This document shows positions 4,359-62,760 of a DNA stretch of 64,000 bases, in pieces. Source of the stretch: Octopus sinensis (lineage: Eukaryota); NCBI RefSeq assembly GCF_006345805.1, contig NC_043003.1, positions 72,354,001 to 72,418,000 on the forward strand, read 5' to 3'. Position 1 is the first letter of the stretch. Every line of letters starts with the position of its first letter. The position numbers and the translations under genes are program-made. The notes beneath the pieces are model-generated. The model was not told the origin of the DNA and searched no databases. It saw only the letters and a list, made by a program, of their open reading frames with translations.

Positions 4359-6050
4359 CACTTGCGTCGGAAATTAATTAGCACTTCTCAAATTTCTACA
4401 TTTTCTTAATTTAATTAACTTATTATCAGAAACGAACTCGTTTTTAATCAAAAATTTATTAAAACATATCCCAGCACACCACATAATTGTTATTAATCGT
4501 GAAATTTAGTCAATATCTTGTTGCTCCTCCTTTGGCAGCAATGACAGCTGCTACGTGGGTCAGCATGCTGTCTATGAGTGCCTGCAAGTACTGTGCAGGG
4601 ATGGCCCCCCATGCAGCAAGAAGTGCCCCAAACAGCTCGTGTCGGTTCCTGTATTGTTGCACATTCAAATCCCTACCCAATCGACTCCAGAGGCTCTCAA
4701 TAAGGTTCAGGTCAGGTGACTGGCCAGGCCAGTCCATGACCGTCACCCCATGGTCCTTGAAGAAACCGGTTGTGAGCTTGGTTGTGTGGGAAAGCGCGTT
4801 GTCCTGCTGGAGCAGTACTCCTCGCCACCAAAGAGGTATCCCGTACTATCTCAACGTACTTTGCTGCGTTGATGTTGGGCATAGAGCCGCCCAACACCAC
4901 TGTAGCTGAACGCCCCTCACACAATCAGACCACCCCCACCTTACTTCATGGTGGAAGCAATGCAGTCTTTGTTGAAGCGCTCACCCCTGCGGCGTCGCAC
5001 ATGGACAGGCTTGTCACTGACGAGACTGAATCGCGACTCGTCAGTGAACATCACTGTCCGCCACTGCTGCACGGCCCATGTCTTGTGGGCACGGGCCCAG
5101 AGCAGCCGCCTCTTCCGGCTTTGGGCTGTAAGGAGCGGCTTACGGGTGGCCCTACAGGATTTTAGACCAGCTTCCAGTAATCTGGTCTTGACGGTGGTTG
5201 TAGACAACTGCTTCCCTGTCACCTTTTGCATCTCCTCCGCCAGTTGCCGGTTCGTTGCCCTTCGGTTGTACAGTGACTTTCGGATCAGCATCCGGTCCTC
5301 CCGCTGGGTCGTCAGCCTCTTCCGTCCCCTACTCTTTTTGTCAGCTGCTGATCCGGTTTCCTCGTATTTCTTAAATAAGCACTGAATTGTGCGCCTGGCT
5401 ACACCAAGTTTTCTGGCTATTGCAGCCTCCGACAGCTTCCCACGCCACGAGAGAGCCTCGTACCGTCTCTCCAAGGTCATGCGAGGTCTTGGGCTCATCT
5501 AGGAATGAACGATAAAAACCAGTTATTTTCATTAAATCTATTCATTTGAATAACGTTATGCTATAACAAAACTGCTATGAGTTATTATACATTAAACAAA
5601 AAAGAAAGAAAGCAGAATTTCTCATCTTATTTGATGTATAACAGAAAGTTTTGTGAACCGGAAGTGACGTCACGAAGCAGAGTGTAGGAGAATTTGTGAG
5701 GAAAAAAAATCTTGCAAATACACAAATCAATTAACCTACGAGCTGTTCAAAACGTCTTACGCGATGAGAAAACTTAGTACGGTGTGATTTCGGTCCTTGC
5801 GAGGCGCTACCTATATCTATTAAACAAAGGAAGATTTGTCTGCATCCGCACTCCAAGTTGTTGTTGCACTGCTATGTCAACATCATTAGGATGTAGACTC
5901 TCAAACCGCTCTGCAAACAAAGTTACGTCATCGTTCTGCGCAACAGTGAACTCGCAACAAAGCAATAGTTCGAGATATGGCCACTAGGTGACAGCAAATA
6001 CCTTGAGTGAAGAGCAAATCAAGGGTGCTAATTAATTTCTGACGGTAGTG
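4359..6050 (-). mobile_element. Tc1 (DD34E-type) DNA transposon with TIRs, inserted at TA within (TACA)n
   Basis: TIRs CACTTGCGTCGGAAATTAATTAGCAC and GTGCTAATTAATTTCTGACGGTAGTG, both flanked by TA. A transposase lies between them. Confidence 0.95.
4510..5498 (-). pseudogene. Frameshifted Tc1 transposase
   Basis: HTH (IARKLGVARRTI), RKPLL, VMFTDESRF, QQDNALSH and WPGQSPDLNLIESLW, split across reading frames. Confidence 0.93.
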
Positions 6051-20499: not shown

Positions 20500-20910
20500 T
20501 TTATGAAATTTGTGTTGCAAGACTCCTGGTGTGGAATCGTGTGTTGGAACAGATATTGTATTTCGGGACGGTCATTTTTTCGTGTTTTGTAAACACCCGC
20601 ACTATATATTTGTTCTCCACTCGTTTATTACTGTTCTTATTCTAACTCATATCCATTGTCTGATATGTGTGTATATATATATATTAATTTGCTTTTTGCG
20701 GGAAGGAATGTTTCAACGAAATCGTGTCTCGCCTTGACCTTCGAACGCGGAGTAGATGAAACAGAGGCGATTGAAGAAGGGGAATTTTTCTTGTGTTGTA
20801 TGTCCTGTACTCTATTTTTTCGTTGTTTAAGAAAAATGTCCATGTCCTTGGTTTTGTGTTTATGTTTCCGTTTCTCATTGTGTTCGGCGTTTTTTTTTGT
20901 CCTGTACCCA
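20500..20910 (+). mobile_element. Non-coding pLTR-like element containing a rearranged hammerhead-like module
   Basis: Bounded by TA-rich microsatellites. A structured module is followed by a T-rich tail of about 130 nt, the same layout as 1980-2200. Confidence 0.55.
20692..20779 (+). ncRNA. Candidate non-circularly permuted hammerhead ribozyme (five-helix pseudoknot)
   Basis: A CTTTT/AGAAG; B GAAGG/CCTTC; C TGTTTCA/TGAAACA; D TCGTGT/ACGCGG; E TCGCCTT/GAGGCGA. GUC lies at the D-E junction, GA(A) follows B' and TTGA follows E'. Confidence 0.65.
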
Positions 20911-21009
20911 TATATGCATGTATATATATATATGTAGATGTAGGTACGTACATATATGCATGTATATATGCATGTTTTATTTATTTATTTGTTATTATAT
21001 ATATAATAT

Positions 21010-21043
<34 letters not shown>

Positions 21044-21160
21044 TACGGAGGAGTAAACACATAAATGTGAAACAAGGTGGAAAAAAGAGTACTCAAATAC
21101 CAGTGGTAGAGTAATATGCTTTATTTTAAGCAGCAGAAAATTTCTGCTGCTAAAATAAAG

Positions 21161-21205
<45 letters not shown>

Positions 21206-21386
21206 ATGTTTGTTTTTACGCTCTGTTATAAAAACATTTTTAATCTGATATATTACTCTATACTTTTGTAGAGAACAGATTCATTATTCTTCTATAAAAT
21301 GTGTTGCTGATAACTTCGAAGTTCAGCCAACTAACCCATGTGTTTTTATAAAATCATCTTTTCGTGTGTCGGTTGATACGTATGTA

Positions 21387-21438
<52 letters not shown>

Positions 21439-21439
<1 letters not shown>

Positions 21440-22130
21440 GAGAAAGAAGCAACAAGAATGGATAGGTTTTTAGTACAATCGTTTCATACAAGGACAGGCT
21501 TATTAAAAGTTGTAAAATTACAGCATATAAACGTGTCCCGTACTCATCAGCTAAAATACATGTGAGTTCTCTAGACATCCTAGTGGTTGAGGCTATACTC
21601 ATGAAGTAATGTAGATAATAAGTAACATAAACAGATTTCCAAAGTTCATTAAAGTTCTTTAAAGATGATGTACAGTCTTATCACAGAATTTTAAAAAAGT
21701 TCTAATAGCATCACAGAGAAGGTGACCTAATCCATAGAGCACATATGAATTTCCAGAGATATGATGAGGGATTACATACTCACAGAAGACAAATTTATCC
21801 ATTGTTAATCACAACGAGGTGGGTCTCAATTCCTGCTTATTAGCATTACAGAGAGGGTGAATTAATCCTTTGTATAGATGCACAATTTCCAATGGTGTAG
21901 ATGTAAGTTTCCAGAGAAACTTATATGCTGTCATTTTTACAACTTTTAATAAAGCGTGTCCTTGTATGAAACGATTGTACTAAAAACCTATCCATTCTTG
22001 TTGCTTCTTTCTCGCTTATAATCACCCCACATTACTGTATTGTTAAAACAGTATAGTTTTTTGGGTGCATCTAAGTTAGGTACCATATTCAAGTAAATTC
22101 ATTTAAATTAACTTGAATCTTTATTGCTTT

Positions 22131-22135
<5 letters not shown>
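21439..22135 (-). mobile_element. PLE pLTR insertion with inverted arm, within (TA)n
   Basis: 21439-21530 is inverted at 21921-22014. HHR on the minus strand and TA arrays on both sides. Confidence 0.85.
21468..21556 (-). ncRNA. Type I hammerhead ribozyme with extended stem II
   Basis: Minus strand: TTTTAG-CTGATGA-GTACGGGACA...TGTCCTTGTAT-GAAA-CGATTG-TA-CTAAAA. Confidence 0.85.
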
Positions 22136-22184
<49 letters not shown>

Positions 22185-22185
<1 letters not shown>

Positions 22186-22610
22186 CTCTTTTCTTTTACT
22201 ATTTTACTTGTTTCAGTCATGTGACTGTGACCATGCTGGAGTACCGCCTTTAGTCGAAGAAATCGACCACAGGACTTATTCTTTGTAAGCCTAGTACTTA
22301 TTCTGTCAGTCTCTTTTGCTGAACTGCTAAGTTACGGGGACCTAAACACACCAGCATCGGTCGTCAAGCGATGTTGGGGGACAAACACAGAATCATAAAC
22401 ATATATACACACATACATATATATATTTATATATACACACATATATATGACGGGCGTCTTTCAGTTTCCATCTACTAAATCCACTTACAAGGCTTTGGTT
22501 GACCCGAGACTATAGTGGAAGACACTTGCCCAAGGTGCCACGCAGTGGGACTGAACCCAGAACCATGTGGTAGGTAAGCAAGCTACTTACCACACAGCCA
22601 CTCCTATGCC
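22185..22610 (-). mobile_element. SINE family A, full length
   Basis: Reverse complement match to 6548-6963. Confidence 0.92.
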
Positions 22611-22669
22611 TGTGTGCATATATTTATTTAGTTAGTTTCTGTATGCAGTGACCATCTAATTGAGACACA

Positions 22670-22810
22670 TTTATTCTTTTCTCTCTCCACTCTTTTTCTA
22701 TCATTGTTTATTCTTTCTGAAAAAGAGCTGATGCTCAAAATATAAAAAAACTCTGCTATTTTTCCTGAGTATAAACTTAACACACTTTGTTTTTTGTACT
22801 TCATCTTTAC
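22670..22810 (+). mobile_element. Decayed pLTR related to 2030-2200, with an eroded HHR (22712-22749)
   Basis: TCTTT-CTGAAAA-A-GAGC-TGAT-GCTC-AAAA-TATA, followed by TTTCCTGAG as in the 2.1 kb copy. Confidence 0.6.
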
Positions 22811-23094
22811 ATATATTTTTTAAAATCTGGCAACATATGTATTGTAGCTACATGTTGAGAAATGACAATGGTAGTGGCCATGATTGCGATTATGATGGTA
22901 ATGGTGAGGAAACGGATGAAGGAGGTTATGGTTGTAGTGATAGTGGTGCTGCTGTTGAAAAAAGAATGTAGTTGCGTATATAGATAGATAGAGATGGATA
23001 GGATTATGGATATAAGTATGCACATATATATTCATTAACTCACGCCGCGTATAACCCAAGTTAATATCTATAGCCATATTAGGCCCCTGGATAC

Positions 23095-23131
<37 letters not shown>

Positions 23132-23187
23132 AATTATGAAAACTCATCACAGCCTTGGCTTTGTTATCGCTTTTGTCTAATATATCT

Positions 23188-23242
<55 letters not shown>

Positions 23243-23246
23243 ATAG

Positions 23247-23282
<36 letters not shown>

Positions 23283-23647
23283 ATATATATATATTATGAT
23301 CAAGTATCGTATAGCTCACTAGATGCGGAAGGTAGTTTCCATTAATATGTCTATTACACGACTGACTTCTTTCCCTCTCTCTCTCATTCTCTCTGTTTCT
23401 GTCTCTCTCTCTTCCCCCCCCTCTCTCTCTCTCACACACACACACATATACATACGACATGTAAATTAGAGTGCTGTTTTCTGTTTAGTATTTTTTCATG
23501 CTGACGAGCACCCTAGTTAATAGAACAGCTGACACCCTCACTATCCAGCTCTGTATATGTATGTAAGTGTGTATTATGTATGTATGAATGTATGCATATA
23601 TGTATGTATGTGCGTATGTATGTGTTTCGGTATATGTATATATATGC

Positions 23648-23680
<33 letters not shown>

Positions 23681-23982
23681 ATGTGTGTATATATACACAC
23701 ACACGTACATATAAATGAATATGAATATAATGTATACAAATATGTAAATAAATGTGTACATATACATACATACCTACATATATACATATATATATATTTA
23801 TATACATACATGCATACATATGTGTATATAAATATGTATGTATATATATATATATATGTGTGCATATATATATATATATGCACATATATATACACTCACA
23901 TATATATATATATGTATGTATGTATATGTACACATATATTTACATATTTGTATACATTTTATTTATATTCATATATGTGTAC

Positions 23983-24035
<53 letters not shown>

Positions 24036-24123
24036 TATATATATATATGTGTGTGTGTGTGTATACATATACAGATATATATATAATTTCATACATACAC
24101 ATACACACACACACAAACACACA

Positions 24124-24169
<46 letters not shown>

Positions 24170-24521
24170 TATATGCATGGCTGCATGCACACAGTCGTAT
24201 AAACATAGCTGAAGAGAATCGAGAGAAAAAGAAAAGGGGAGGTAGAGAGAAGCATTGTCAGCTCCAGCTACATAAATAATGTGGCAGGGACGTCAACAAA
24301 AGTTGACAGCAGACTGGCAGAACTGACAGGTTTGGACTAGGGGCTCACAGTTAAGAAGGATGACGTCGGTATCAGTGACAGGAGGACAGAGGAGGTGAGT
24401 GGGGGAATGGCGAAGGAAAAAGGGAAAGAGAAAGAGAGCGGGTGTGGGACGGGTGTAATAGTTTAAGGGTAAGTTTATGAAGATGTAGGTGTTTAGTAAT
24501 GGATATATATATATATATATC

Positions 24522-24552
<31 letters not shown>

Positions 24553-24752
24553 GCGTGCGTGAGTGTGTGTGTAGGTGTGTGTAGGTGTGTGTGTATGTGT
24601 GTGTGTTTGTGTGCGTGTGTGTTTGTGTGGATATGTGGATATCAGGGGGAGGGGAGATAGAGATATAGGTACTTGCTTGGGTATATGCGAAAGGAATGTT
24701 ATACACGTACACTCATATATGTGTGAATTGCATATGAATGTATGTATGTGCG

Positions 24753-24786
<34 letters not shown>

Positions 24787-24922
24787 TGTATGTATGTATG
24801 TATGTATGTATGGATGGATGGATGTATGTATGTATGTATGTGCGTATGTATGTATGTATGTATGTATGTATGTATGTATGGATGGATGGATGGATGTATG
24901 TATGTATGTATGTATGAATATT

Positions 24923-25119
24923 CTTTTATGAGTTTCAGTCGTTTCGATTGCGGCCATGCTGGAGCACTGCCTTTTTGGTCGAAGAACTCGACACCTGGAC
25001 TTATTCTTTGTAAGCTTGGTACTTAATCTATCGGTCCCTTTTTGCCGAATAGGTAATTTATGGGGACGTAAACGCACCAACATCGGTTGTCAAGCGATGG
25101 TGGAGGGAACACACAGACA

Positions 25120-25174
<55 letters not shown>

Positions 25175-25324
25175 GTATGACGTGCCCTCTTTTAGTTTGC
25201 GTCTACGAAATCCACTCACAAGGCTTTGGTCGGCCTGAGGATATAGTAGGAAACACTAGCCCGGAACACTGGACCCGGAACCATGTGTGTTGGAAACAAG
25301 TTTCTCACCACACAGTCACACTAT

Positions 25325-25325
<1 letters not shown>
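24923..25325 (-). mobile_element. SINE family A
   Basis: Reverse complement match, with internal (CA)n(TA)n. Confidence 0.9.
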
Positions 25326-25367
<42 letters not shown>

Positions 25368-25769
25368 CGCGCGTGCGATATATGTTTTATATAAGTCCAA
25401 AACGTTGCTTTTTCAGAAAATGAAAAACAGTTTCAGCATTCTATAGTAAAACCGTTGAACTACACTTGGCATCTGAAGCAGCTTGGGATAGCTTGACCAA
25501 AAAACCGGCTATTGCGAGCAAAATTAAATATTGAAAAAAAAAACTGCATTTGGCCAAATTTGGGCATACGACAGTTTAGCATAATAGCAATGATGTATGT
25601 GTATATATATATATATACATGGGTGTGTTTGATTGTGTATAAAACAATATATTACTCAAAGAGATTCCAACTTTGTCTGATTTTCACATTTTATTTACAA
25701 TCTTATAATAATGTAATATAAGAGAATATAATATAATGAAATGATAGAATATTAAATGCCCATTCTGAT

Positions 25770-25814
25770 TGAACTAGTACTTTCATTCATTACACTGTGC
25801 AATCTTCAGGTTCA
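25770..25814 (-). ncRNA. Type I hammerhead ribozyme-like motif
   Basis: Minus strand: TGAAC-CTGAAGA-TTGCACAGTGTAATGAAT-GAAA-GTAC-TA-GTTCA. Perfect stem I, palindromic stem III AGTACT, irregular stem II. Confidence 0.7.
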
Positions 25815-26289
25815 TGTAGAAGTGGTGATAGTTATGTTTTACAATTTACAACTGTAGTGACATGGCTAAAGTGTGTGCCTTAAATACGTTTGTATAGGCT
25901 CCGAATATTAATTTTTGCAAACTGTATTCTGACCAATCAGTGTGTAGCTTTACTAAATTACTTAAGTTGATTGATCTTTTGTTTAGGTGTCACGGTTTGT
26001 TGGACATCTCAAGAGAACTGTATTTTGACCTTGGCCAAAGCAGTAATTTCCCGGGGAATTTTACGATTTAGTTATCATCTCCTTTGTTAATGTGGTCGTT
26101 GCTGTTATTGTTGTTGGTCGTGGTAGGTGTAGCTGTGGTAATAGAACTTTAGACCTCAAAATAAGATTATTTTTACGAACTTTTCTCTTGACTTAGCTAG
26201 TATTTTCCTGCTATCGTCATCATAAGCGTCTTATACATATGTGTGTGTATTTATATATATACATGTGTGTGCGTGTATATTGTTGCTGT

Positions 26290-26585
26290 TGTTTGTTCCT
26301 TCTCGATGGCTCACAAGGGCCGGTTTCCCGGTTTCATTGGCGTATAGGTTTCCTACCTGCACAGGACGTAGGTCCGTCGCAGGTGAGCTGCTAGATGCAG
26401 GAGGATAGAGTGAAAGAAGGTTGTGGTAAAAGAGTCAGCAGAAGTTTGCCATTATCTTCTGCCGGAGCTGCGTGGAGCTTAGGTGTTTCGCTCAAAAACA
26501 CACACATCGCCCGGTCTGATATTCAAACACGCAATCCTTCGACTGCGAGTCCTCTGCTCTAAATACTAGGTCATGTGCCTCCACT
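26290..26585 (-). mobile_element. tRNA-derived SINE related to family B
   Basis: Shares the head and GAGCGAAACACCTAAGCTCCACG with 8191-8490, but the tail differs. Confidence 0.75.
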
Positions 26586-26714
26586 TATATATATATAAGT
26601 ATGTGTGTGTGTGTGTGTGTGTGTGTAATGTGTATATAACTGTGGAATTTATAATGAAATTTGGGCAATAGATGATGAGGGACGTGCATATACACGTCCA
26701 TTGTGTGCGTGTGT

Positions 26715-26910
26715 TTTCCTGTTTCCCTGTCTGTGTTTGTCCCACCAACATCGCTTGACAACCGATGCTGGTGTGTTTACGTCCCCGTAACCAAGTGGTT
26801 CGGCAAAAGAGTACTGGGCTTAGAAAGAATGAATGCAGGGGTTGATTTGTTCGACTAAAGGTGGTGCTTCAGCATGGCCACAGTTAAATGACTGAAACCA
26901 GTAAAAGGAT
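26715..26910 (+). mobile_element. SINE family A 3' half
   Basis: CATCGCTTGACAACCGATGCTGG...GACTGAAAC. Confidence 0.88.
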
Positions 26911-26923
26911 ATATATAATATAT

Positions 26924-26969
<46 letters not shown>

Positions 26970-27083
26970 CATACATATGTGTATGCATGTGTGTGTTTGT
27001 GTCTGTATGTATGTGTATGCATATATTTATTTTTGTATTCATATAAGTATATCTGTATATGCATGGGTTGTGTATACACACGG

Positions 27084-27156
<73 letters not shown>

Positions 27157-27813
27157 TACATATAGACGCCCCACACACAAGCACACATAAAATGTAAAAA
27201 GTGGGGATAGCTTGGTTGGTGCGTAGGTAGATTGATAAATATATATTTTACCTGCTTGGCGTTCTACATATTCAATACACTAATGCTTTACAGTTTTACA
27301 TACTTAACATTGTAAGATAAAGAACTTTGGTGAATTAATTTGTCTTTGAAATTGCAAGACAACACAATCCATTAGTAGCTTTGAAATTCAGAAGAGAACA
27401 AGGGAAACAACTCCAATAATTAGAAAGGGATATAACTCTAATGATTATAGAACTTCAATACATATTGATCTCTAATATGATTGCTAAGGAGGTCTAATAA
27501 AGCTGAAACATATCCCTTACTTTCACCGGTTGAAATTACTGGAATTATCTCATATAGTTTTATCTTCCAGTTCTTTATAAAGAATTTACACACTCGTACA
27601 GAAAATTTTCGTTTTCTCCGAAGATTTTAACTCACTTTATCACATACGGAAGAGTTTACATATGATGTGTATACATTTCAATGAATGCATGAATGTGTAT
27701 ATATATATATATATTATATGGATGGATGGATGGGTGGATAGCTAGATAAATAGATAGATAGATAGATATACAGACAGAGAGACAGATGTAGATGCATACA
27801 GAGGGACATAATT

Positions 27814-27845
<32 letters not shown>

Positions 27846-27849
27846 ATTA

Positions 27850-28500
27850 CATAAAAAATACAAAATGGGACAAGAACGCAAAACAACCAGACAGATGATG
27901 CAAAAAAGGGATAAAAAAAATTCCATATAGATGATACAAAGAAAACAAGGTCGTGTTATTCGGAGTTTTATTTCCTCGGTCGAGTTCCAGATTATCTTTG
28001 CAATTTCGGCTGGTTATACTCGAGATTGCTGCAATCTGGCCAGCCCCAAGGAAAAACCAAGCTAAGAGCATTAGATTGCCTGGAAGAAAGCAGCAAATGT
28101 ATACGTAAACAAGGACGGAATAAAATGGAGAATGTTACACAAATACAAATAACAGGACATAAAAAGAGGTGTCTTTCGACTAAGGACGAATTAAATTAAG
28201 ATGGCGTGTGTGGAAGTAAAGCTTAACGGCAGGGATACAAGATATTACAGGTTCGGGGAGGAATATAGATGTTGCATGGATGTCGACCGAACCAAGAAAG
28301 GTCAGCCTTGGCCGAATACCGGTCACGTGGGGAGAGAAGAGAGAGAGGTAGAGGCAGAGCGACAAAAGAAAGAGGGGCGAGAAAAGAAGATAGGAACACA
28401 GTGAAGCGAAAAGAAGGAAAGTGAGCATGAAGAGTAGGCAAGGAAATGTGAGAGAGGGGGATCAAAAGAACGAAAAGTTGAATGAACGAAGTAAGTATAT
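27850..28500 (-). mobile_element. Non-coding pLTR-like element containing a rearranged hammerhead-like module
   Basis: The minus strand reads pyrimidine tract, CGCCATCTT, structured module, T-rich tail, (TA)n. This is the same layout as the PLE end at 1280-2200. Confidence 0.55.
27971..28054 (-). ncRNA. Candidate non-circularly permuted hammerhead ribozyme (five-helix pseudoknot)
   Basis: Minus strand: A TTTCC/GGAAA; B GGCTGG/CCAGCC; C CCAGATT/AATCTGG; D GCAAT/ATTGC; E TCGAGT/ACTCGA. AUC lies at the D-E junction, GAAA follows B' and CCGA follows E'. Confidence 0.65.
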
Positions 28501-61470: not shown

Positions 61471-61664
61471 TTTATTGTATTTGTTGCATTCACCGCACGT
61501 ATTTATCAATAGTGAGAAATTTGCGGTTTTGGATTGTCAGCTTCTGTTTTTAGCAAGTGGTATTCTGATATCTTACTTTGTTCATATAATTATATATGTA
61601 TGTATATATGTCTGTCTGTCTGTCTGTATGTATGTATGTATGTATGTATGTATGTATGTATGGC

Positions 61665-62760
61665 GCCTCTTTTAATTGCTGTTTAAAGGAGAACTGGAAG
61701 AGGTATTTGGATGATTGCTTCATACTTTGGAAAGACAGCATGGACAAACTCCTTGATTTCAAAATAATGCTTAACAACATACACAGCAATATACAATTCA
61801 CTATGGTACACAACAGTAAACAACTCCCTTTTCTAGACATCTTAATTAAAATAGTTAACAACCACAAAGAAACAGACATCTTTTATAAACCTATAGATTC
61901 TAAACAATTCCTATTACTTAACTCTTGCCACCCAACACATAAAAATTAATATGCCTTTTAATCTAGCGAAAAGAATCTGTACCATAGTTTCGGATACGTA
62001 TACCCATGAACAAAGACTCCTTGAACTTAGATCAACACTAACTAAAAGACATTACCCAATCTCATTAATAAATGATGGCATTAAAAGAGCTAAGGAAATA
62101 GATATACAAATATTAAGGCAAGCCAGCCGAAATACTAAACCAGACTTTAAAATACTCCCGTACATTTCCACACACAACCCTAGAAACAACGAAGCCCACA
62201 AAATTATCACCGAAAATCTTCTCATCCTCAAAGAAGACAAAACAATGAACGAAATTTTAAGCTCATACAAAATTATAAAAAGCAAAATGCAACCGAAGTC
62301 GCTGAAAAAAATATCAGCCAGCTCAAGACTATATCCACTAACAACAGAACCAAAAGTGAACAAATGTGGTCGTCCTAACTGTGGAACATGCCCCCACCTT
62401 TTGGAGGGTTCAGAATTCTACTTCAAACAAGGAGAAATATTTAAGATCAAATCAAATTTCACCTGCGCCTCGGAAAATCTAATCTATGCCATGACATTGG
62501 ATGTGGTAACCACTACATTGGACAAACAGGAATATCAGTCCGTCGAAGAACCACCATCCACAAAGAACAAATCCGCCACCCACAATACAGACAGTTACTG
62601 GTTAGTGAACACATAGAAAGGTGTGCCAGGAATCTTAATCCTAATTTCCAAATCTTCCCCTTCTATCAATGTTCACAGAACACCTCAGTGCAACAAAGGT
62701 TGAATAAAGAGGCAATTTTAATCAATAAATAGCTTCCCCAACTAAATATAAATACACAAC
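61665..62760 (+). mobile_element. Penelope-like element (Neptune-like): RT C-half, Cys linker and GIY-YIG pseudogene
   Basis: RYLDDCF, IQFT, LPFLDI, TDIFYKP, SCHP, KCGRPNCGTC, FTCASENLIY and YIGQTG, with frameshifts and stops. Confidence 0.95.

What the first reader, a model, noticed from the sequence alone, without database searches (positions are those of the whole stretch)
20692..28054. Two unrelated elements share one scrambled-hammerhead pseudoknot (non-circular permutation, core apparently split by an extra helix)
Seen: 20692-20779 (+) and 27971-28054 (-) share almost no primary sequence. Yet both can form five helices in the identical crossing order A B C D E B' D' C' E' A', with similar helix and linker lengths, including a 6-nt purine-rich D'-C' linker. 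The shared unpaired residues are hammerhead-like: one C after U at the D/E junction (GUC or AUC), GAA right after B', YYGA right after E', and GG before B. Known: an HHR has strands S1 (I-CUGANGA-II), S2 (II-GAAA-III) and S3 (III-UH-I), and types I-III are circular permutations of S1-S2-S3. Inference: D is stem III, E is stem I and B is stem II, so the strand order is S3-S2-S1, which is not a circular permutation. The CUGANGA strand appears split at position 7 by helix A, and helix C is an extra scaffold. Both modules sit about 120-130 nt upstream of a (TA)n-abutting T-rich end, where ordinary HHRs sit in the PLE ends in this window. Non-circularly permuted hammerheads have, as I recall, been reported in some animals. 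Whether these families or this split-core topology are described needs checking.
Basis: partly seen in the sequence, partly recalled or inferred. Interest (0 to 1): 0.92.

Follow-up and report, generated by a model that had tools for sequence, protein, structure and literature searches.

The report
Rewired hammerhead ribozyme in animal retroelements
The two stretches are damaged copies of a hammerhead self-cutting RNA fold wired in an order I could not find described; it sits at the tail of thousands of jumping-gene copies in this genome and of Naiad retroelements from several animal groups thought to lack such a ribozyme, but cutting itself is untested.

Summary
Both modules belong to high-copy, non-coding, (TA)n-inserted Penelope-like repeats. 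Other copies restore an intact CUGANGA and GAAA; the window copies are mutants. Genome-wide, G8 and A9 are kept and N7 varies, so the core is not split at position 7. The block order is type SGC (Eckert 2023), with its interaction helix. However, the chain is opened between A9 and G10.1: the stem II strand sits at the 5' end. A closing helix A and a hairpin H join it, usually as a perfect four-way junction. Read by eye, the same layout is in published Naiad consensi from cephalopods, corals, a box jellyfish and an acanthocephalan. Nematode Naiads carry type CSG. Naiads were reported to lack canonical hammerheads. Ten literature searches found no description. Cleavage is not shown, and the autonomous partner of the two window families was not found.

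The parts
27837..28495 (-). M2 non-autonomous Penelope-like repeat copy (family unit about 770 bp), 3' end in (TA)n
   Evidence: blastn to family loci; 2095 first-look candidates, 40 scored; tandem pair in L017
28084..28090 (-).
28046..28083 (-).
   Evidence: (7 of 10 pairs of its main helix with changes on both sides)
28040..28045 (-). M2 stem II, 10.x strand (B), moved to the 5' side
   Evidence: helix 4
28033..28039 (-). M2 interaction helix, 5' strand (C)
   Evidence: helix 5
28018..28029 (-). M2 block S: stem III strand 28029-28025, H17 = C28024 (predicted cut 3' of it), stem I strand 28023-28018
   Evidence: helices 6 and 7
28000..28013 (-). M2 block G: stem II' 28013-28008, GAAA 28007-28004, stem III'
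27987..27993 (-). M2 interaction helix, 3' strand (C')
27973..27985 (-). M2 block C: stem I' 27985-27980 and core 27979-27973 (family CUGAGGA; U4 changed to C in this copy)
27965..27972 (-). M2 helix A, 3' strand, directly after A9
20684..21004 (+). M1 non-autonomous Penelope-like repeat copy, 5'-truncated inside hairpin H, flanked by (TA)n (related unit 879 bp in tandem in L139)
   Evidence: (2702 candidates, 40 scored)
20686..20701 (+). M1 3' arm of hairpin H only; the 5' arm and the 5' strand of helix A are lost
20702..20715 (+). M1 stem II 10.x strand 20702-20706 and interaction helix 5' strand 20710-20715
20723..20734 (+). M1 block S: stem III strand, H17 = C20728, stem I strand
20738..20749 (+). 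M1 block G: stem II' 20738-20742, GAA 20743-20745 (family GAAA; one A lost here), stem III'
20757..20782 (+). M1 interaction helix 3' strand 20757-20762, stem I' 20765-20770, core 20771-20777 (family CUGAAGA; C3 changed to U here), helix A 3' strand 20778-20782

Best explanation
A hammerhead ribozyme of the non-circular (SGC/CSG/GCS) cyclic class, opened at a new point. 5' to 3': A, hairpin H, stem II 10.x strand, interaction strand, III-UH^-I, II'-GAAA-III', interaction strand, I'-CUGANGA, A'. The catalytic core is standard. The A9-G10.1 backbone link is replaced by a strand exchange: A9 runs into helix A, and hairpin H runs into G10.1. The likely form is a four-way junction, with stem II stacked on the core and A stacked on H (inferred). 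The ribozyme lies in the 3' pseudo-LTR of Naiad elements and of non-autonomous tandem Penelope-like repeats. It most likely cuts tandem or read-through transcripts 3' of H17 into unit-length RNAs for reverse transcription and insertion into (TA)n (inferred from canonical PLE hammerheads). The two window copies are probably dead or impaired. Shown: core conservation, covariation, context. Inferred: stacking, cleavage, role.
For: Core words are invariant while N7 and the stems change. Eight family representatives give different Watson-Crick pairs in all six helices, with U16.1-A15.1 in 8 of 8. Alignment A1 (24 distinct rows, 45 pairs): 83.3% of cells paired; 103 cells changed on both sides against 38 in shuffles, 0/500; slid controls 27-50% paired. 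A2 (10 distinct rows, 41 pairs): 91.9% paired, 32 cells, 0/500. 44 of 71 high-scoring hits have no unpaired base at any of the three junction positions. H and A form in the unconstrained folds of L108 and L005, and H in L036. The same layout, with unrelated sequences, was read by eye in Naiad_Obim/Ovul, Amil/Aacu/Anas, 2_Movir, Plae and two unnamed entries. In G000 the Naiad form has 227 matches against 0 control and follows RT motifs on the same strand in L198. A bulged base between 9 and 10.1 is common in PLE hammerheads (PMC4209133).
Against: No cleavage data; the RNA runs were contigs only and their RNA status is a guess. Helix A has the weakest covariation within superfamilies (77.7% paired in A1; 1 of 5 pairs changed on both sides in A2). 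It is not formed in the constrained folds of the M2 and Naiad consensi or in the free fold of L036. The measure 'further pair types' does not beat the shuffles (233/500, 350/500), and relatedness inflates the other measures. The rows were partly hand-picked. Nested folding puts competing helices over the pseudoknot in all five sequences folded. The Naiad examples from other animals were parsed by eye, not by script. No motif was seen in the tails of Naiad_Dcar, Omin, Pmar or Mcor. No 3D model tests the junction.
Confidence: 0.83

Rival explanations
1. One reading: the core is split at N7. CUGA comes from the 3' strand, the two G's before stem II act as G8/G9, and a helix joins the 3' arm of H to the strand starting at N7/G8.
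For: The pairing can be drawn in M1 and M2 (7 and 10 bp). It is favoured in the two damaged window copies. GG precedes stem II in 43 of 71 hits.
Against: The helix does not covary. It is only 3-4 bp in the F12, Naiad and F18 families. G8 and A9 after CUGAN are conserved. The GG is explained as the base of hairpin H and varies.
Confidence: 0.03
2. Same core, but assembled mainly across tandem units or around a circular monomer: blocks S, G and C of one unit use A, H, the stem II strand and the interaction strand of the next unit. That is a type SGC ribozyme with the whole element looped out between A9 and G10.1.
For: The elements occur head-to-tail (three copies at 776-780 bp in L108, two at 879 bp in L139). 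Canonical PLE hammerheads act as dimers (PMC4209133, PMC6765202).
Against: All partner strands lie within about 140 nt of one copy and are transcribed first, so local folding should win (inference). Autonomous Naiad units are 3-4 kb long.
Confidence: 0.08
3. The fold is hammerhead-derived but does not cut, or cuts only with a protein; it serves as a 3' recognition structure for the element's reverse transcriptase.
For: No activity data. PLE hammerheads are slow in vitro (PMC4209133). Eckert et al. assume block C cannot be interrupted.
Against: Every catalytic position (G5, G8, G12, A15.1-U16.1, non-G at 17) is kept across unrelated families and phyla while the stems change. That is the signature of selection on catalysis.
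Confidence: 0.06

Closest known systems
Type-SGC hammerhead ribozymes (HRIMA-1 and variants; Eckert et al. 2023, PMC10085705; main text read, parts 1-6 of 8, supplements not read)
   Same: Block order S-G-C, short linker from stem I to stem II', a helix joining the other sides of stems I and II, standard core.
   Different: In SGC the stem II strand follows CUGANGA directly. Here it lies 5' of block S, and A9 leads into a closing helix A with a hairpin H. The authors assume block C cannot be interrupted. Their SGC motifs came from metatranscriptomes, none from genomes of known organisms; these are in animal genomes.
Type-CSG hammerhead ribozymes (same paper; two metagenomic sequences)
   Same: Same cyclic connectivity. 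Read by eye, six Naiad consensi (four named nematode entries, two unnamed) fit type CSG directly.
   Different: The window's form is opened inside block C, not between blocks G and C.
Naiad Penelope-like elements (Craig et al. 2021, PMC8557442; passages, supplement parts 1, 12, 21, 24 and four searches)
   Same: (TA)n targets, 5' truncation, tandem pseudo-LTRs. Published consensi flagged HHR_core or HHR_half_core, and some unflagged ones, carry the same ribozyme layout.
   Different: The paper reports no canonical hammerhead in Naiads. M1 and M2 are non-coding and share no sequence with the G000 Naiad body.
Type I hammerheads of canonical PLEs and non-LTR retrozymes (PMC4209133; bioRxiv 10.64898/2026.07.22.740005; passages)
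   Same: Position near the 3' end, tandem non-coding units, frequent extra base between 9 and 10.1.
   Different: Those are nested type I motifs, often minimal and dimeric. This one has full stems, at least two pseudoknots and two extra helices.
Hammerhead core variants with insertions (Perreault 2011, PMC3088659, passages; Weinberg 2015, PMC4509812, not held, nothing seen)
   Same: Natural tolerance of small insertions in the core.
   Different: The passages seen describe insertions of 1-2 nt, not a chain break at 9/10.1. The 2015 variants 'with additional helices' could not be checked.

Membership tests
Hammerhead ribozyme | CUGANGA directly 3' of a stem I strand | tested here: met
   Met in the families; the two window copies each carry one change.
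Hammerhead ribozyme | GAAA between stems II and III; A15.1-U16.1 pair; UH cut site | tested here: met
   GAAA columns invariant in A1; U-A pair in 24 of 24 rows and 8 of 8 families; H17 = C in 67, A in 4 of 71 (the descriptor excludes G).
Hammerhead ribozyme | Stems I, II and III supported by covariation; G10.1-C11.1 | tested here: met
   G-C in 65 of 71.
Hammerhead ribozyme | Site-specific self-cleavage | not testable with these tools
   Only contigs were available.
Type-SGC hammerhead | Block order S, G, C with a short stem I to II' linker | tested here: met
   Linker 1-5 nt in 7 of 8 families.
Type-SGC hammerhead | Helix joining the far sides of stems I and II | tested here: met
   Helix C: 5 of 7 pairs change on both sides.
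Type-SGC hammerhead | Stem II strand follows CUGANGA within 1-2 nt (uninterrupted block C) | tested here: not met
   No downstream stem II partner in M2. M1 offers only a weak 4-bp alternative after a 1-nt insertion. The covarying partner is upstream.
Hammerhead types I-III (circular permutations) | Nested three-way junction, order CGS, GSC or SCG | tested here: not met
   The order is S-G-C with crossing helices.
Naiad PLE | ORF with N-terminal GIY-YIG and C-terminal RT | tested here: not met
   M1 and M2 units are non-coding, with no homology to Naiad loci beyond separate insertions. Family F1 with the same ribozyme is linked to RT motifs (RVT_1 E=0.00085, below the Pfam cut-off).
Naiad PLE | (TA)n targeting, fixed 3' end, 5' truncation, tandem copies | tested here: met
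   Cut site to (TA)n clusters near 170 nt (M2), 146 nt (F12) and 195 nt (M1); variable 5' extent; tandems. Not specific to Naiads.
Non-LTR retrozyme | Type I hammerhead in each tandem non-coding unit | tested here: not met
   Tandem and non-coding, but the ribozyme is not type I.

The most novel reading that the evidence does not exclude
Naiad retroelements and their non-coding dependants are the genomic home of non-circularly permuted hammerheads across animal phyla. They include an undescribed seventh layout, in which a four-way junction replaces the A9-G10.1 backbone link, present as about ten thousand recognisable copies in this genome, plus type CSG in nematodes. The reported absence of hammerheads from Naiads would then be a search artefact.
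Probability: 0.68. Interest if true: 0.86.

Novelty: new variant of a known kind. Interest (0 to 1): 0.8.

Why it matters
Eckert et al. counted six possible hammerhead layouts by assuming that CUGANGA and its stem II strand cannot be separated. A natural, covarying form opened exactly there would break that count. It would also show that the core can be entered through a four-way junction, a new place to attach sensors or switches. Non-circular permutations were reported only from uncultured sources and one doubtful bacterial case; here they would be abundant in animal genomes. The finding also bears on a stated puzzle: Naiads were said to spread without canonical hammerheads, which was taken to suggest that hammerheads may merely parasitise Penelope-like elements. 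Rewired ribozymes at the same position argue that self-cleavage is part of the cycle. A 150-nt in vitro transcription tests this directly.

Tried and rejected
Rfam scan of the window: no hammerhead among the 150 of 188 rows shown, which were almost all microsatellite-driven miRNA matches. M1 as a plain type SGC with a downstream stem II: only 4 bp with wobbles, and absent in M2. Autonomous partner for M1/M2: searched by ORF scans, upstream extension and blastn against Naiad, diverged Naiad and intact 782-aa PLE loci; none found. The GIY-YIG ORF upstream of an M1-type copy in L121 is separated from it by a TA run and looks like a separate insertion. Expression: no RNA holder listed on record. 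Four runs laid as contigs hold the family but cannot show ends; one contig begins at the predicted cut, but this fits graph branching equally well and is not used. Metagenome and viral scans with one M2-type pattern: 141 loci, 4 weak parses with broken helices, none accepted. In one search the relaxed descriptor also gave many low-scoring single hits, which I treated as chance and left out; one search used 8 of the clusters. Literature searches found no description. Weinberg 2015 was not held. The supplements of Eckert 2023 and of the bioRxiv preprint were not seen and may bear on novelty.
Full report
Observation. Each belongs to a large repeat family in G000, a 2.7-Gb animal genome: 2702 and 2095 first-look candidates, 40 scored each. 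Aligning the fetched copies shows that the window copies are damaged. M1 (20684-21004, +) is cut off at its 5' side, has lost one A of GAAA and has U for C3. M2 (27837-28495, -) has C for U4. Family copies read CUGAAGA and CUGAGGA; 28 of 33 distinct M1 rows and 30 of 37 M2 rows keep the core.

The core is not split at position 7. A genome-wide pattern fixing only UCUC, GAAA and GACUGAN found G at position 8 in 9833 matches (control 66) and another base in 708 (control 282). Only 183 of the 9833 lack A9 (control 48). N7 is A, U, G or C in different subfamilies. Conservation inside one family partly reflects descent. Here, though, the core stays fixed across subfamilies whose stems differ, which is the hammerhead signature. 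These matches are not a copy number: the pattern misses damaged copies and families with other stem I letters.

The real architecture. A further helix (A) pairs the bases right after A9 with the bases right before H. The order is A, H, stem II strand, interaction strand, III-UH-I, II'-GAAA-III', interaction strand, I'-CUGANGA, A'. My descriptor found 120 hits with the four core helices, 99 of them with A and H, in 630,692 bases of loci that were chosen by search. It found none in 6.3 Mb of shuffles, and 1 of 1920 with the core words fixed. Of 71 distinct high-scoring hits, 44 have no unpaired base at any junction position.

Covariation. Eight family representatives use different pairs in all six helices. 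On a MAFFT alignment of the M2 superfamily (24 distinct rows: copies nearest to five cluster consensi, ten hand-picked singles and the window copy), 83.3% of cells pair, and 103 cells change on both sides against 38 in shuffles (0/500). Slid controls pair 27-50%. The M1 superfamily (10 distinct rows) gives 91.9% and 32 cells, 0/500. Against my reading: the count of pair types does not beat the shuffles, related sequences inflate these scores, and helix A covaries least within superfamilies. Helix A was not formed in the constrained folds of two of the large families. Free folding gives H and A in L108 and L005, and H only in L036.

Context. The units are non-coding and about 770-880 bp long. 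They occur head-to-tail, are variably cut at the 5' side, and end in (TA)n at a family-specific distance from the predicted cut. This is the pattern of non-autonomous Penelope-like elements. Craig et al. 2021 (PMC8557442; passages) state that Naiads lack canonical hammerheads, though some have core words that fit no descriptor. I read part of their consensus file by eye (parts 12, 21, 24 and four word searches, not all 54 entries). The same layout, with unrelated sequences, is at the tail of Naiad_Obim and Ovul, Amil, Aacu and Anas, 2_Movir and Plae and two unnamed entries near parts 9 and 19. That makes about six independent cases, since the coral and cephalopod sets are near-identical within themselves. 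Plae has A 5 bp, H 8 bp and stem II 6 bp with no linker. The Beroe entry is a doubtful variant with a 2-bp stem I. Four named nematode entries and two unnamed ones fit type CSG. I saw no such motif in the Dcar, Omin, Pmar or Mcor tails. In G000 the cephalopod Naiad form has 227 matches, control 0. It follows RT motifs on the same strand in L198. I found no autonomous element with an M1 or M2 tail, so their tie to Naiads rests on shared ribozyme layout and insertion pattern only.

Mechanism. Shown: a standard hammerhead core, covarying stems and the 3' position. Inferred: stem II stacks on the A9-G12 pair as usual, while the backbone leaves after A9 into A and returns from H into G10.1, a four-way junction. 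The site tolerates a bulged base in PLE hammerheads (PMC4209133, passages). Also inferred: cleavage 3' of H17 releases unit-length RNA from tandem transcripts for copying by a Penelope-like enzyme. Assembly across tandem units or around a circle is possible with the same helices. No data show cleavage; the runs were contigs only.

Comparison and novelty. Eckert et al. 2023 (PMC10085705; parts 1-6 of 8 read) define six layouts by assuming uninterrupted blocks. They found SGC in metatranscriptomes, CSG in two metagenomic sequences and a doubtful GCS in one bacterium. This RNA is built like type SGC but fails one defining feature, the unbroken block C, so I do not file it as SGC. Ten searches and passages of PMC13725137, PMC10162972, PMC3088659, PMC7936874, PMC6765202 and bioRxiv 10.64898/2026.07.22.740005 gave no description. 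A 2026 paper still cites only general 'variants with additional helices'; one of its sources, Weinberg 2015, was not held. Most subscription journals are not searched.

Verdict. Real feature, new variant of a known kind, interest 0.8.

Noticed in passing
PMC8557442 supplement File S5: Naiad-1, -2, -3_Nbra, Naiad_Hcon and entries near parts 13 and 16: These tails fit type-CSG hammerheads with an interaction helix of 9-13 bp, a form reported from only two metagenomic sequences. Read by eye.
   Followed up: partly
PMC8557442 File S5: Naiad_Ptep and entries near parts 17-19: Spider and other arthropod Naiad tails have hammerhead core words in yet other wirings; not resolved.
   Followed up: no
   Followed up: no
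window 14024 (+), 13572 (-), 21550 (-): Ordinary type I hammerheads with long stem II loops; the first two are identical over the hammerhead and form an inverted pair.
   Followed up: partly
L361-L363 (for example L361:2397-4742, -): A young Penelope-like family with an intact 782-aa RT plus C-terminal GIY-YIG frame and an upstream 499-aa frame. Its tail holds what looks like a minimal type I hammerhead with the U3-A8 variant. A candidate mobiliser, but it shares no sequence with M1 or M2.
   Followed up: partly
window 61590-62616 (+): Broken C-terminal GIY-YIG Penelope-like ORF related to the 782-aa family by eye; no Pfam hit at E 0.01.
   Followed up: partly
M1 and M2 families: The 3' arm of H is also complementary to the CUGANGA strand in these two families, so branch migration could give an off state; not seen in F12, F18 or Naiad.
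   Followed up: partly
L099, about 1477 (-): A GC-rich S-G-C-like arrangement unrelated to the other families, with an imperfect stem I; unresolved.
   Followed up: no
window 4487-5498: Tc1/mariner-like transposase fragments, judged from the translations.
   Followed up: no
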